DNA from: an uncultured Chloroflexia bacterium
GTDB lineage: Bacteria > Chloroflexota > Limnocylindria > Limnocylindrales > CSP1-4
Direction: 5' to 3'
Length of the DNA: 64,000 nt
Assembly (NCBI GenBank): GCA_963739365.1
Contig: CAVUAG010000009.1
Span: forward strand, 28,715 to 92,714
Shown: positions 17,466 through 20,100 of the stretch, piece by piece
Layout of the letters: every line of letters begins with the position of its first letter
Numbering within the stretch: the stretch's first letter is position 1
Translations under genes and position numbers: made by a program
The notes under the pieces: generated by a model
Told to the model about the DNA's origin: nothing
What the model saw: the letters and a program-made list of their open reading frames with translations, nothing else
The model's database searches: none

Positions 17466-20100
17466 TCAGTCGGTGCCGTGGGATGACGGCGCGTGCGCGG
17501 TGTCGTGCGCCCCGCCGCCATGGCCATGGCCGTTGTGCCGGGAGCCGTTGCCGTTCCCGCCGCCCGCGATCGATGCCGGGAGGACGGGCAGCATCCTCGG
17601 CCCGATGTCACGCCCCGCGGCGAGCGCCCGCTCGGCCCAGTCGGGCTCGCGCCGGATGTAGGTCATCTCCGTCTCGCGGTCCACGGCGGCGATCGCGATG
17701 AGGTCGATCATCGGCTCTTCGCGGCTCGTGTGGGCCAGCTCGAAGTCCGGGCCGCAGCGGAGCGCGTCGTACGGGCAGACGTCCACGCAGATGCCGCACA
17801 GGATGCAGCGACTCTCGTCCACCTCGTACTTCTCGAGGATCCGCGGCTTGGGCATGAGGGCGCCCGTCGGGCATGTCTCGGCGCACCGGCCGCACGAGAC
17901 GCAGGGCGTGTCGTTGAGGCTCATGTCGAGCGGCGTCGTGACCAGCGTGTCGAAGCCGATCCGCATGAAGTCGTAGCACGCCGCTCCCACCACCTCCGCG
18001 CACACGTTGGCGCAGCGGCCACAGTCGATGCAGCGCGAAGGCTCGCGCAGGATGAAGGCGTGGCTGTCGTCGCGGAGGTAGTCGTGGTTGGTGCCGGTGA
18101 AGCGGTTCTCGGTGACGCTGCGATAGCCGGCCCCGCGGTTGTACTGCGGTTCCAGCGTGCGCAGGGTCGTCCCGTACTCGATGCCCAGGCGACGCAGGTC
18201 GCAGAACCCGATCGCCTCGCACGTGCACTGGAGGCAGCGCGTGCTCTCCGCGACCGCCGCCTCGCGGCTGTACGGGATCTCGTACTCGATGTACGAGTCG
18301 CGCCGTGCCTCGCCGGGCATGCTGGAGAGGCGGTGCCGGGATTCCTTGACCTCGGAGGTGAAGGGGACGATGGAGAGGAACTCCGGCTGCGGCTCGGCCA
18401 GCGTCTGGCGGGTCCGGATCGCGGCCAGGTCCAGGCCCTGCAGGAAGGCGTCCACGGCGTACGCGGCGCGCCGGCCGTCGGCGATCGCCTGGACGACCGT
18501 GGCGGCACCGGTGCGGACGTCGCCCGTCCCGAAGATGCCGGGCCGGCCCGTCTCGAAGGTGACCGGATCCACCTTGAGGCGCCACTGCTTCGTCTTCTCC
18601 AGCCCCGCGTTGCCGCCCCCGAGCCAGGTCAGGTCCGGCCCCTGGCCGATGGCGAGGAGGACGCGGTCGCACTCGATGACGAACTCGGTCCCGGCCGCCG
18701 GTTCGGGGCGCCGGCGGCCCGAGGCGTCGGGCGCGCCGAGCTGCATCCGGATGAACTCCACGCCGGAGACCTTGCCGGTCGCCTCGTCCACCAGGACGCG
18801 GGTCGGGCCGGCCTGGAAGATCATGGTGACGCCTTCCTCGATCGCCTCGTGGACCTCGCTGGACGCCGGCATGTCCTTCATGTCGCGGCGGTAGACGAGC
18901 GTCACCTCGTCGGCATGCTGGCGAACCGACGTGCGGACGCAGTCCATCGCGGTGAAGCCGCCACCGATGACCACGACGCGGGTCCCGGCGTGGCCCGGGT
19001 AGGTCAGGCCGAGCGTGGCGATCTTGAGGTAGGCGAGGCCGTCGATGACGCCGTCCGCATCCTCGTTCGGGATGCCCAGCGTGTTCGTGTCGTAGCAGCC
19101 GATGGCGACCACGACCGCGTCGAACCCCTGGTTCTGCAGGTCGTCGAGGCTGAAGTCCCGCCCCAGGGCCTGGCCGCACACGAAACGCCCGCCCAGGCGG
19201 GTGACGCTCTCGTACTCGGGCTCGAGGACGCGCTCCTTCGGCAGGCGGTACTCGGGGATGCCGTAGCGGAGCATGCCGCCGGGGGCCTCGTCCCGCTCGA
19301 AGATCGTGACGTCGTGACCCGCGATCAGGAGGTAGTAGGCAGCCGACGCGCCGGCGGGCCCGGAGCCGATCACGGCCACGCGCTTGCCCGTCTTCGGCTG
19401 CAGCTCGAAGGGGAGGGGCGGGTCGATGCCCTGCTCGCGCATCTCCTGCAGCACCTGGTCGCCGGCGTAGCGGTGGCTGTCGCGGATCGCGATCGCCTCG
19501 TCCACCTCGTCGCGGCGGCAGTGCTCCTCGCAGGGCGCCGGGCAGACGCGGCCCAGGATCGAGGGGAAGGGGATCGTCCGCTTGAAGATCCGGGCAGACT
19601 CGCGGAACTCGCCCTCCGCGTTCGCCTTCAGGAAGCCCGGGATGTCGATGTGGCTCGGGCACTTGTTCTGGCAGGGCGGAAGGCAGTACGCGTTGTGGTC
19701 GGAGAAGATCAGCTCCAGGTTCGTCCGCCGGATCCGCCGGATCTCCTCGGTCTGGGTCCGGACCACCATCCCGGCCTCGGCCTCGCGCGAGCAGGAGATC
19801 GGCGGGTGCTCCTCGCCCTCCACCTCGACGACGCACATCCGGCAGGCCCCGAAGCCGGGCAGCTTGGGCTCGTAGCAGAGGGTCGGGATCTCGATCCCGT
19901 TGTCGCGGCAGACCTCCAGGATCGTCTGGCCCTCGCGGCCCTCGACGAGCGCGTCCGTCGACCTCCAGCCGGATCGCGGGCGTCGACTGCGGCCGCTGCG
20001 GCGCCTGGGTCCGGAAGAGGCGCTCGGCGAGGCTTTCGACGGCCGGCTCGGGGCTGGTCGAGGGGACGATGTCGGCAGGGCGCGAGATCAGGTCGGCCAT
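17466..20100 (-). CDS. Multidomain Fe-S flavoprotein: NuoG/HydA-type [2Fe-2S] domain + GltD/NfnB-type FAD/NAD(P)H domain + 2x[4Fe-4S] + C-terminal half of NuoI (one frameshift near 19950)
   Basis: [103 protein letters not shown]; then [28 protein letters not shown]. Confidence 0.9.

What the first reader, a model, noticed from the sequence alone, without database searches (positions are those of the whole stretch)
17855..20100. NuoG position filled by a GltD/NfnB-type FAD-NADPH domain: candidate NADPH-linked complex I
Seen: after an N1b-like [2Fe-2S] domain, the His-ligated N5-like motif is interrupted (HNAYC...[insert]...CEAIGFC) by a complete glutamate-synthase-beta-like flavoprotein. The insert has its own Fe-S motifs, an FAD Rossmann fold (GSGPAG) and a second Rossmann fold (GGGFTAMD...YRR). 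No molybdopterin-like NuoG C-terminus, H-cluster or formate dehydrogenase domain follows. Established: the YRR motif after the second Rossmann fold typifies NADP(H)-using GltD/NfnB/DPD enzymes, and similar A subunits occur in soluble Nfn-type HydABC-like complexes. Inference: electrons enter from NADPH via FAD and run to the NuoI clusters and N2, giving a proton-pumping NADPH:quinone oxidoreductase, or the complex works in reverse as a pmf-driven NADP+ reductase. Z also ends in a His/Gly-rich tail ([16 protein letters not shown]).
Basis: partly seen in the sequence, partly recalled or inferred. Interest (0 to 1): 0.8.

Follow-up and report, generated by a model that had tools for sequence, protein, structure and literature searches.

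The report
Complex I with NADPH input module
This gene encodes an iron-sulfur flavoprotein with an NADPH-binding site that is built into the only respiratory complex I of a common group of soil and freshwater bacteria, so their proton pump probably burns NADPH as well as NADH.

Summary
On the minus strand (17466-20100) lies Z. It has a [2Fe-2S] domain, then a His/Cys cluster motif split by a complete GltD/NfnL-type module (Fe-S, FAD, NADPH "YRR"), then a 2x[4Fe-4S] domain. It has no molybdopterin-like domain.

Z aligns end to end with residues 3-700 of NfnA/StnC, the large subunit of the soluble NfnABC/Stn transhydrogenases. Z ends in the C-terminal half of NuoI. The N-terminal half of NuoI is fused to a degenerate NuoE in neighbour X. 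Y is a NuoF/BfuB core.

The order nuoABCDH-X-Y-Z-JKLMN is conserved in the relatives examined. In five genomes checked (four of them 91-95% complete) it is the only complex I, and none has an intact NuoI or NuoG.

Best reading: a quinone-reducing complex I with a second, NADPH/FAD entrance. The "dead-end" cluster branch of the soluble enzymes serves as the outlet to NuoI. No activity has been tested.

In this assembly Z, Y, nuoH, nuoL and nuoM carry single-base insertions. These are absent from relatives and from independent short-read contigs, so they are probably assembly errors.

The scan found the same system earlier in at least 20 other genomes. Seven literature searches found no description.

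The parts
17466..20100 (-). Z: StnC/NfnA-like Fe-S flavoprotein fused to the C-terminal half of NuoI. About 878 aa once the +1 insertion at 19951 is discounted.
   Evidence: ORF and translation. Pfam. PDB: 9bov_A E 4e-160, 8oh5_C E 1e-137, 9n5u_A E 2e-138, covering their residues 3-700. Intact orthologues of 865-882 aa.
19749..19946 (-). N-terminal [2Fe-2S] domain of Z (N1b / A1 type).
   Evidence: Pfam Fer2_4, residues 3-68. Four invariant Cys.
19446..19730 (-). HNAYC start of the His-ligated cluster motif, running straight into the two-cluster Fe-S domain of the GltD/NfnL module.
   Evidence: PF10588 positions 1-17 of 40 at residues 75-91, then Fer4_20 at residues 90-169. H86, C90, C94, C98, C137, C141 and C145 are invariant.
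18474..19382 (-). FAD and NADPH Rossmann folds ([18 protein letters not shown] at 18885-18893).
   Evidence: Pyr_redox_2, residues 191-493. YRR aligns with the YRR of NfnA/StnC. The model has pLDDT 80-95 here. Fold hits are NfnA, StnC, NfnL (rmsd 3.3 over 439 columns), GltD and DPD.
18201..18236 (-). [12 protein letters not shown]: the second part of the interrupted His/Cys cluster motif.
   Evidence: C573, C576, C578 and C584 are invariant.
17856..18053 (-). NuoG/HydA-type 2x[4Fe-4S] ferredoxin-like domain.
   Evidence: Fer4_Nqo3, residues 634-699. Eight invariant Cys.
17673..17843 (-). C-terminal half of NuoI ([12 protein letters not shown]...GPDFELA...REE).
   Evidence: TIGR01971 positions 71-116. 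PDB NuoI 8qby_I residues 93-143, 8e9g_I residues 84-129.
17469..17570 (-). Low-complexity His/Gly-rich tail, specific to this lineage.
   Evidence: Present but variable in family f1. Absent or different in f2, f3 and other families. 11-50% identity.
19951..19951 (-). Extra base that breaks Z after codon 51.
   Evidence: win_extra 1 against a 95.7%-identical relative. Short-read contigs of 4 runs leave out one letter at 19949-19951.
20115..21471 (-). Y: NuoF/BfuB-core flavoprotein. It has the FMN-type domain. The N3/B1 cluster motif lacks its second Cys. Broken here by a +1 base at 20689.
   Evidence: Pfam Complex1_51K, SLBB, NADH_4Fe-4S. PDB HydB/NfnB/StnB 342-357 bits against NuoF 235-281 bits. 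Motifs. Indel.
21476..22309 (-). X: N-terminal half of NuoI (about 22079-22276) fused to a NuoE/StnA-like domain that has lost the second Cys pair of its [2Fe-2S] site.
   Evidence: TIGR01971 positions 1-65. PDB NuoI 8e9g_I residues 7-79 and StnA/NfnC. Pfam 2Fe-2S_thioredx. Alignment.
22320..26556 (-). nuoA, nuoB, nuoC, nuoD, nuoH. nuoH is broken by a +1 base at 22581.
   Evidence: tblastn with intact orthologues. NuoB CC...GDCTCSGG...GCPP and NuoD HPSTHG / LGYLHRG are read. Indel.
11521..17453 (-). nuoJ, nuoK, nuoL, nuoM, nuoN. Single-base insertions lie at 15669 and 15110 (nuoL), 14584 (nuoL end / nuoM start) and 14424 (nuoM).
26759..27910 (-). Methyltransf_28 (NDUFAF7/MidA-family) gene directly upstream of nuoA.
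   Evidence: PF02636, E 5e-48.

Best explanation
Z is the large subunit of a three-protein electron-input module (X, Y, Z). This module replaces NuoE, NuoF, NuoG and NuoI in a quinone-reducing, proton-pumping complex I.

The module is of the soluble NfnABC/Stn (Nfn-Bfu) type, with these differences:
- Z has lost the Fdh-like domain.
- Y has lost the extra BfuB domains.
- X has lost the NuoE [2Fe-2S] ligands.
- The two halves of the 2x[4Fe-4S] subunit NuoI are fused to the N-terminus of X and the C-terminus of Z. The module is therefore held on the NuoB/C/D module by a reconstituted NuoI.

Inferred mechanism:
- NADPH reduces FAD in the GltD/NfnL module of Z. Electrons pass its two [4Fe-4S] clusters and the His-ligated cluster into the NuoG-type chain.
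- NADH probably reduces FMN on Y, which feeds the same chain through the N3/B1-like cluster and the [2Fe-2S] of Z.
- Both routes leave through the ferredoxin-like domain of Z, the branch that is a dead end in soluble Nfn/Stn. They then pass to the split NuoI clusters, cluster N2 of NuoB and menaquinone.
- The enzyme cannot bifurcate in the Bfu manner, because the C1 cluster of the flavobicluster is missing.

Shown here: the architecture, its conservation, the split NuoI, and that this is the only complex I in the genomes checked.
Inferred, not shown: cofactor binding, the electron path, substrate use, and direction.
For: Architecture of Z:
- Z aligns over its whole Fe-S/flavin part with C. saccharolyticus NfnA (9bov_A, residues 3-697), S. 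ovata StnC and T. sibiricus NfnA. The same three are the top fold hits.
- YRR and the FAD glycines are conserved with these NADPH enzymes.

Split NuoI:
- In 5 of 5 genomes the TIGR01971 model matches only as two halves, positions 1-65 in X and 71-117 in Z. 0 of 5 have a match over the cut-off.
- The PDB ranges are complementary.

No canonical alternatives:
- No NuoG over the cut-off in 0 of 5 genomes.
- One NuoD locus in 4 of 5 genomes; G001 has an extra weak fragment.
- Y is the only Complex1_51K protein in both f2 genomes.

Conservation:
- Operon order with all 13 genes in single frames in 5 relatives.
- X-Y-Z lie adjacent in 8 of 8 more distant Chloroflexota loci fetched.
- 91 of 401 Chloroflexota genomes match at E <= 1e-20, including f1 23/23, f2 4/4, f3 16/16 and f24 26/28.
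- f24 includes cultured Thermogemmatispora and Ktedonobacter.
- Thermogemmatispora has nuoA-C-D-H without nuoB at one locus, nuoB-X-Y-Z at another, and a separate canonical operon with an intact NuoI.

Quinone-type core: NuoB N2 ligands and NuoD His/Tyr are present.

Published structures:
- The path in solved homologues is FAD-A7-A6-A3-A2-A1-B1-FMN, with A2-A4-A5 as a dead-end remnant (PMC11829005, passages; PMC10482914, section 8).
- The flavobicluster B1-FMN-C1 is the bifurcating site, and X lacks the C1 ligands.

Phylogeny: the 9 Z-type sequences form one clan, SH-aLRT 99, among 38 long Stn/Nfn-like representatives.
Against: - No activity, cofactor or structural data exist for any member.
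- The AlphaFold2 model is below pLDDT 50 for residues 618-819, which include the outlet domain. No inter-cluster distance could be checked.
- Y departs from NuoF at recognised motifs: NADE(G/S)(D/E)PG becomes NGYEADPA, and the second Cys of the N3/B1 cluster is T/A in families f1-f3 (79 of 80 related loci).
- Y and X are among the least conserved subunits (57% and 59% identity between f2 and the window, against 78% for Z). Y may therefore be partly degenerate, and NADH use is uncertain.
- These genomes also have PntB (5 of 5), so a special need for NADPH handling is not evident.
- A wired FMN-FAD pair could short-circuit the NADH and NADPH pools, and nothing here explains how that is avoided.
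- In this particular assembly the genes are frame-broken.
Confidence: 0.6

Rival explanations
1. NADPH-only complex I. Y and X are structural remnants without a working NADH/FMN site. All electrons enter through the FAD of Z.
For: - The NuoE cluster is lost.
- The N3/B1 motif lacks one Cys in f1-f3.
- The NADE motif is altered.
- Y (57%) and X (59%) are much less conserved than Z (78%).
- Y scores below the NuoF equivalog cut-off, 358.8 against 558.65.
Against: - The Gly-rich loop GLRGRGGxG, GGEE(T/S) and RPPYP are kept in 13 sequences from 8 families.
- Pfam Complex1_51K is well over its cut-off.
- The more distant families keep the full CGKCxPC motif.
- In the f2 genomes Y is the only NuoF homologue.
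Confidence: 0.2
2. The main physiological direction is the reverse. Proton-motive-force-driven electron flow from quinol reduces NADP+ (and/or NAD+), so the complex serves as an NADPH generator.
For: Complex I is reversible in principle (established knowledge, recalled). The FAD/NADPH module works in both directions in Nfn/Stn enzymes (PMC10482914, abstract passage).
Against: - It is the sole complex I of streamlined 1.1-1.4 Mb genomes, which points to ordinary forward respiration.
- PntB, the usual pmf-driven NADPH maker, is present in 5 of 5 genomes.
Confidence: 0.08
3. X, Y and Z form a soluble Stn/Nfn-like transhydrogenase that merely sits inside the nuo operon. The membrane complex is an 11-subunit, ferredoxin-type enzyme.
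For: Sequence similarity of all three proteins to NfnABC/Stn.
Against: - Both halves of NuoI are covalently part of X and Z, and no other NuoI exists in 5 of 5 genomes.
- The Fdh-like domain is absent. In Stn that domain mediates tetramer formation, and deleting it gave no functionally active complex on purification.
- The BfuB ferredoxin domain and the C1 cluster are absent.
- In Ktedonobacteria the cassette is linked to nuoB.
Confidence: 0.03
4. The GltD-type module is a vestige, structural only. The enzyme is an NADH-only complex I.
For: The Fdh-like domain of canonical NuoG is a precedent for a retained but inactive domain (recalled). The A4-A5 branch is inactive in Nfn.
Against: - FAD and NADPH motif residues are invariant or at least 90% conserved down to 44% identity.
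- The FAD/NADPH region is 75% identical between f1 and f2 and 45-57% identical to other families.
- Z is among the best-conserved subunits.
Confidence: 0.05
5. In this organism the operon is decaying: Z, Y, nuoH, nuoL and nuoM are pseudogenes.
For: Seven single-base insertions break five genes in about 8 kb.
Against: - All seven are +1 insertions, with no compensating decay or stop codons inside the frames.
- The 95.7%-identical relative and four other relatives are intact.
- Short-read contigs from 4 runs lack the extra base at the three sites laid. At 22583 this holds for all covering depth in 4 of 4 runs.
- PntB elsewhere in the same assembly is also split between frames.
- All this fits consensus errors in the assembly.
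Confidence: 0.04

Closest known systems
NfnABC / StnABC (Nfn-Bfu) electron-bifurcating transhydrogenases: C. saccharolyticus 9BOV/9BP5, S. ovata 8OH5, T. sibiricus 9N5U
   Same: - Three-subunit make-up: NuoE-like, NuoF-like, and a large subunit with [2Fe-2S], an inserted NfnL/GltD FAD-NADPH module and NuoG-type clusters.
- Z aligns with residues 3-700 of NfnA/StnC.
- Y is closest to NfnB/StnB/HydB.
- The NuoE part of X is closest to NfnC/StnA.
   Different: - No Fdh-like domain in Z.
- No N-terminal thioredoxin-like or C-terminal ferredoxin domain in Y.
- No C1 cluster ligands in X, so the published bifurcation site is incomplete.
- Both ends carry halves of NuoI.
- Encoded inside a nuo operon; predicted to be membrane-bound and quinone-linked rather than soluble and ferredoxin-linked.
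Canonical 14-subunit complex I (NuoA-N; T. thermophilus Nqo1-15, M. smegmatis 8E9G)
   Same: - nuoA, B, C, D, H, J, K, L, M and N in the usual order.
- NuoB N2 ligands and NuoD quinone-site His/Tyr are present.
- N1b-, N5- and N4-type motifs in Z; NuoF-type domains in Y.
   Different: - NuoI is split across two proteins.
- NuoG lacks its C-terminal domain and carries a flavin module.
- The NuoE cluster is lost.
- None of X, Y or Z reaches the NCBIfam cut-offs for NuoE, NuoF, NuoG or NuoI.
Predicted Nuo-Bfu and Mbh-Bfu membrane complexes (Schut et al. 2022, PMC9304861, passages seen)
   Same: A BfuABC-type cassette sits in the middle of a complex I-like gene cluster. Mbh-Bfu is said to have a subunit with an extra flavin site.
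   Different: - Those are defined by a full bifurcating BfuBC core with extra clusters and are predicted to use NADH plus ferredoxin. Here the core is stripped and the A subunit is the NADPH (Nfn) type.
- In the passages I read, their Nuo-Bfu clades are Deferribacteres/Proteobacteria and Planctomycetes/Nitrospirae.
- A split NuoI is not mentioned in the passages I read. Their figures and supplements were not seen.
Mbx-like operons of Thermotoga and proteobacteria with a gltD-related flavoprotein (Degli Esposti 2015, PMC4758237, passage seen)
   Same: A GltD-related NAD(P)H flavoprotein is attached to a complex I-like membrane module.
   Different: There the flavoprotein is said to substitute for NuoI in an Mrp/Mbx-type, non-quinone complex. 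Here NuoI is kept (split), and the module is a whole Stn-type cassette on a quinone-type complex I.

Membership tests
NfnA/StnC (BfuA with NfnL/GltD insertion) | [2Fe-2S] domain, His-cluster motif interrupted by a GltD/NfnL FAD-NADPH module, then NuoG-type [4Fe-4S] domain | tested here: met
   One continuous alignment to 9bov_A residues 3-697 and 8oh5_C residues 4-700. Top fold hits. Pfam order.
NfnA/StnC (BfuA with NfnL/GltD insertion) | C-terminal Fdh/molybdopterin-like domain (StnC residues 683-1172) that mediates tetramer formation | tested here: not met
   Z ends about 130 residues after the ferredoxin-like domain, with a NuoI half and no such Pfam domain. The domain's role is taken from PMC10482914, section 8.
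Bfu bifurcating core (BfuB/BfuC) | BfuB with extra N- and C-terminal cluster domains, and the BfuC [2Fe-2S] C1 that completes the B1-FMN-C1 flavobicluster | tested here: not met
   Y (459 aa) matches only residues 117-525 of the 584-aa NfnB. The second Cys pair of X is replaced (LPTHPSG). The whole thioredoxin-like domain is absent in 6 of 13 aligned orthologues.
Bfu bifurcating core (BfuB/BfuC) | Ferredoxin-dependent electron bifurcation | not testable with these tools
   Needs enzyme assays.
NuoI (TIGR01971) | One polypeptide with both CxxCxxCxxxCP motifs, scoring over 113 bits | tested here: not met
   Halves only: positions 1-65 in X (about 49 bits) and positions 71-117 in Z (about 46 bits). 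0 of 5 genomes over the cut-off.
NuoG (TIGR01973) | Full-length match over 470 bits, including the molybdopterin-like domain | tested here: not met
   90.6 bits, N-terminal part only. 0 of 5 genomes over the cut-off.
NuoF (TIGR01959 / Pfam Complex1_51K) | FMN domain, SLBB and N3 cluster domain; equivalog score over 558 bits; four Cys for N3 | tested here: inconclusive
   All three Pfam domains are over their cut-offs. The equivalog score is 358.8, below 558.65. The second N3 Cys is T/A in f1-f3.
GltD / NfnL / DPD NADPH flavoprotein fold | Fer4_20 two-cluster domain, FAD Rossmann fold (GxGxxG) and NADPH Rossmann fold with an Arg pair after strand 2 | tested here: met
   Fer4_20 63.7 bits and Pyr_redox_2 101.8 bits, both over their cut-offs. 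YRR aligned to NfnA/StnC. Fold rmsd 3.0-4.2 to NfnL, NfnB and GltD. That the Arg pair binds the 2'-phosphate is recalled, not tested.
Quinone-reducing complex I core | NuoB with four N2 Cys; NuoD with the quinone-site His and Tyr and no NiFe Cys motifs; NuoH and three antiporter-like subunits | tested here: met
   Motifs read in the translations. All subunits found by tblastn. NuoD Pfam over its cut-off. Which residues are the ligands is recalled.

The most novel reading that the evidence does not exclude
A two-flavin, three-substrate complex I. NADH (FMN on Y), NADPH (FAD on Z) and menaquinone are joined by one branched Fe-S tree. The same proton pump would conserve energy from NADPH oxidation. 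It could also set the NADH/NADPH balance, including pmf-assisted NADP+ reduction. The 'dead-end' A2-A4-A5 branch of soluble Nfn/Stn enzymes would then be the counterpart of the outlet that is live here, tying the histories of soluble Bfu enzymes and complex I together. This would be the main respiratory entry point in Limnocylindria and a second complex I in Ktedonobacteria.
Probability: 0.3. Interest if true: 0.85.

Novelty: new variant of a known kind. Interest (0 to 1): 0.7.

Why it matters
Complex I is known with NADH, F420H2 or ferredoxin input modules. A native NADPH entrance on a proton-pumping complex I has not been shown experimentally, as far as my seven searches of the held library go.

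If the reading is right:
- NADPH from NADP-linked dehydrogenases could be respired with full energy conservation in a bacterial class that is abundant in soil and fresh water.
- Splitting NuoI would be a new way of docking a redox module on the Q-module.
Pathway callers would then score these organisms as lacking complex I.

Cultured carriers (Thermogemmatispora, Ktedonobacter) make it testable.

Tried and rejected
- Complex prediction was called once for the X N-half, the Z C-terminal part and 4Fe-4S clusters. Association of the two NuoI halves therefore rests on sequence only.
- The AlphaFold2 model of an intact orthologue has mean pLDDT 60.2 and is under 50 for residues 618-819 and 832-882. 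I drew nothing from it about the outlet domain, the NuoI half or the tail, and no cluster distances.
- Contigs from an RNA-library run (X16) lie on X, Y and Z. They are contigs and may come from relatives or from DNA, so I do not count them as proof of expression.
- The motif counts over 80 loci are regex hits in six frames. 20 loci are shorter than 8 kb, and the HNAYC motif was itself the search pattern, so 80/80 for it means nothing.
- The three weakest phylum hits (G154, G207, G251; E 1e-21 to 1e-23) were not inspected and are not claimed as carriers.
- In one search, G008 and G009 (75% and 67% complete) gave only paralogue-level matches.
- The search of earlier findings by place found nothing for this genome.
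Only E-value ranks and a tree among StnC/NfnA-like representatives (quick method, midpoint root only, 16 of 44 inner branches open) were obtained.
- I considered a hydrogenase reading for nuoB-(nuoD)-X-Y-Z clusters. For this window I dropped it because NuoD has the quinone-type motifs. I did not check this for the Ktedonobacteria copies.
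Full report
WHAT IS THERE.

The window has about 72% G+C. It carries a nuo operon on the minus strand, from nuoA (26200-26556) to nuoN (11521-12927).

The finding is gene Z. Its ATG is at 20100 and its stop at 17466. 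Pfam finds the following on the 828-aa in-frame part:
- Fer2_4, residues 3-68.
- The first 17 of 40 positions of the NuoG His-cluster domain, residues 75-91.
- Fer4_20, residues 90-169.
- Pyr_redox_2, residues 191-493.
- Fer4_Nqo3, residues 634-699.
- Fer4, residues 709-732.
- No molybdopterin, H-cluster or FDH domain.

The motif HNAYC...[insert]...[26 protein letters not shown]...VYRR and the His/Gly-rich tail can all be read.

THE FRAMESHIFTS.

In this assembly the first 51 codons of Z are in a different frame from the rest. Orthologues of 865-882 aa read straight through: [16 protein letters not shown].

I aligned the operon to a 95.7%-identical relative. This gave 41 gaps, 37 of them not a multiple of three. 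Seven are single extra bases in the window that coincide with frame changes: 14424, 14584, 15110, 15669, 19951, 20689 and 22581. Five relatives have all 13 genes in single frames.

I then laid contigs from three DNA runs and one RNA-library run on 17400-22700. They leave out one letter at 19949-19951, at 20689-20691 and at 22583. At the last site this holds for all covering depth in 4 of 4 runs. PntB elsewhere in the same assembly is also split between two frames.

I read the insertions as consensus errors in the assembly, not as gene decay.

WHAT Z IS.

Against solved structures, Z aligns in one piece with three proteins:
- Residues 3-697 of the 1178-aa NfnA of C. saccharolyticus NfnABC (9bov_A, E 4e-160; the entry was identified in PMC11829005).
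- S. ovata StnC (8oh5_C, E 1e-137).
- T. sibiricus NfnA (9n5u_A).

NfnL/NfnB, GltD and DPD match only the flavin module, at E 1e-78 to 1e-42.

An AlphaFold2 model of an intact orthologue is confident only in the [2Fe-2S] and flavin parts (pLDDT 80-95). It is poor (below 50) for residues 618-819. Its best fold matches are the same three proteins, then NfnL, T. maritima NfnB, GltD and DPD.

The 'GltD inserted into the N5 motif' architecture is therefore the known NfnA/StnC architecture. StnC is described as [2Fe-2S] (1-101), GltD (102-565), NuoG-type clusters, and an inactive FdhF-like domain (683-1172) (PMC10482914, section 8). Z stops where the FdhF-like domain would begin.

THE SPLIT NuoI.

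The last conserved part of Z (residues 704-760, window 17673-17843) matches the second half of NuoI: 8qby_I residues 93-143, 8e9g_I residues 84-129, and TIGR01971 positions 71-116.

Two genes upstream lies X (21476-22309). It begins with the first half of NuoI: 8e9g_I residues 7-79 and TIGR01971 positions 1-65. It continues as a NuoE/StnA-like domain.

In five genomes (G000, two of the same genus, and two of family f2; the last four are 91-95% complete) the NuoI model matches only as these two halves. 0 of 5 have a match over the cut-off. 0 of 5 have a NuoG over its cut-off. Each has one NuoD locus; G001 has in addition a weak fragment. In both f2 genomes (1.2-1.4 Mb) Y is the only Complex1_51K protein.

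The NuoB and NuoD of the operon carry the N2 Cys motifs and the quinone-site HPSTHG / LGYLHRG motifs (which residues are ligands is recalled). This is thus the organism's only complex I, and it cannot be complete without X and Z.

X AND Y.

Y (20115-21471) has the Complex1_51K, SLBB and NADH_4Fe-4S domains. It is closer to HydB/NfnB/StnB (342-357 bits) than to respiratory NuoF (235-281 bits). It covers only their core and lacks the N- and C-terminal cluster domains of BfuB.

Across 13 orthologues from 8 families, the Gly-rich loop, GGEE(T/S) and RPPYP are kept. The NADE-type motif reads N(A/G/V)(Y/M)xxDP. In families f1-f3 the second Cys of the N3/B1 motif is T or A. Over 80 related loci, 79 have this form and 0 have the canonical one (a crude regex count).

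The NuoE part of X has lost the second Cys pair. In six of the 13 aligned orthologues the whole thioredoxin-like domain is missing. The published bifurcation site of Bfu enzymes is the flavobicluster B1-FMN-C1 (PMC11829005, passages). C1 cannot form here, so Bfu-type bifurcation is unlikely.

No NCBIfam model reaches its cut-off for X, Y or Z.

DISTRIBUTION.

- A match to Z at E <= 0.001 was found in 41 of 41 genomes of the window's genus and of family f2. By my count of the listed rows, 32 have one near-full-length match and 7 have pieces. Two incomplete genomes (G008, G009) have only paralogue-level matches.
- Of 401 Chloroflexota genomes sampled, 91 match the C-terminal 244 aa at E <= 1e-20: f1 23/23, f2 4/4, f3 16/16, f4 2/2, f9 5/5, f24 26/28, f28 9/11.
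- In 8 of 8 loci fetched from these other families, X, Y and Z lie side by side. The layouts are a full operon (f3, f19), nuoB-nuoD-X-Y-Z (f4), or nuoB-X-Y-Z (f24, f28, f9).
- Record titles label the close relatives Candidatus Limnocylindrales.
- f24 holds cultured Ktedonobacteria such as Thermogemmatispora carboxidivorans, where the protein is named 'FAD-dependent oxidoreductase'.
- That genome has a canonical nuo operon with an intact NuoI. It also has a nuoA-C-D-H cluster that lacks nuoB, and the separate nuoB-X-Y-Z cluster.
- Among 1.84 billion cluster representatives, most relatives at 37-47% identity are 1000-1400 aa and StnC/NfnA-like. Of the ten hits of 780-900 aa inspected, only P0261 had a true NuoI-type C-terminus.
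- In a quick tree of 47 rows, the 9 Z-type sequences form one clan (SH-aLRT 99). With a midpoint root only, this clan sits among the long forms.

HOW IT PROBABLY WORKS (inference).

In the solved homologues, electrons run FAD-A7-A6-A3-A2-A1-B1-FMN. A2-A4-A5 is called a dead-end evolutionary remnant.

In Z all ligands of the corresponding clusters are invariant. The branch that is dead in the soluble enzymes continues directly into the NuoI half.

The simplest model is a branched tree. FAD/NADPH on Z and FMN/NADH on Y both feed the NuoG-type chain. Electrons then leave through the ferredoxin-like domain to the reconstituted NuoI clusters, N2 and menaquinone.

Z is as conserved as NuoB and NuoD (78% between f2 and the window), while Y (57%) and X (59%) are among the least conserved. 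The FAD/NADPH region itself is 75% identical between f1 and f2. This favours Z as a working catalytic site and leaves the state of Y open.

PntB is present in 5 of 5 genomes, so the module is not needed to make NADPH. Respiring surplus NADPH is the more natural role, but the direction of flow is untested.

COMPARISON WITH THE LITERATURE.

- Schut et al. 2022 predicted membrane-bound Nuo-Bfu and Mbh-Bfu complexes with a full bifurcating core in other phyla, plus a Dehalococcoides Mbh-Bfu with an extra flavin site (PMC9304861, passages). I did not see their figures or supplements.
- Degli Esposti 2015 noted gltD-related flavoproteins in Mbx-like operons (PMC4758237, passage).
- Spero et al. 2015 noted that many Chloroflexi have 13 of 14 nuo genes and lack only NuoG (PMC4453560, passage).
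- Hug et al. 2013 and a heliorhodopsin preprint mention Chloroflexi or 11-subunit complexes but not this design (passages).
- Seven searches of the held library gave no paper describing a Stn/Nfn-type cassette inside a split nuoI. Subscription journals are largely outside that library.

EARLIER NOTES OF THIS SCAN.

After I had reached this reading, look-ups by sequence and by words showed that the scan has reported the same system on other DNA. By words, 23 findings in at least 20 genomes hold all the terms. They agree with my reading but are not independent evidence.

VERDICT.

The system is a new variant of a known kind, complex I with an alternative input module. It is not new within this scan, and the copy in this window is marred by assembly indels.

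Noticed in passing
window 14424, 14584, 15110, 15669, 19951, 20689, 22581; also G000:C6:42636-44031: Seven single-base insertions break nuoM, nuoL, Z, Y and nuoH. PntB on another contig is likewise split between two frames. All seven are +1 insertions relative to intact relatives, which suggests consensus indel errors throughout this assembly.
   Followed up: partly
window 26759-27910 (-): A Methyltransf_28 (NDUFAF7/MidA-family) gene sits directly upstream of nuoA (PF02636, E 5e-48). A preprint describes the same pairing next to 11-subunit nuo operons of Actinobacteria.
   Followed up: partly
L028:10463-11848 (+), family f3: In one f3 genome a 461-aa protein lies between Z and nuoJ. It has a polyketide-cyclase/SRPBCC domain and an NAD(P)H-binding SDR domain. 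It may be an accessory subunit; any likeness to mitochondrial NDUFA9 is recalled, not tested. In another f3 genome (L027), unrelated genes fill that gap.
   Followed up: partly
G000:C22:10508-12315: A second NuoF-like gene lies next to a 300-aa ORF with a NuoG/HoxU-type N-terminus. It is probably a soluble diaphorase or formate-dehydrogenase-type module. It is absent from the small f2 genomes.
   Followed up: no
G000:C9:52395-53132 (window about 23681-24418) and relatives: The NuoD of X-Y-Z-type operons matches Pfam Complex1_49kDa in two pieces (positions 1-171 and 199-271). The canonical NuoD of Ktedonobacteria matches 1-271 in one piece. This could be a marker for this complex I lineage.
   Followed up: no
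P0259, P0267, P0271, P0311, P0322, P0324: Six of the ten StnC/NfnA-like representatives of 780-900 aa end in ...DHCARL, inside the Fdh-like domain. This may be where an in-frame TGA (selenocysteine) stopped the gene call, so some 'long' relatives may be real formate-dehydrogenase-type enzymes. The Sec reading is recalled, not tested.
   Followed up: no
L117 and L023 (G151, Thermogemmatispora): The genes for the second complex I are scattered. nuoA-C-D-H (without nuoB) lie at about 0.59 Mb and nuoB-X-Y-Z at about 1.30 Mb. No nuoJ-N was found within about 8 kb of either, so the antiporter-like subunits may be shared with the canonical operon or lie elsewhere.
   Followed up: partly
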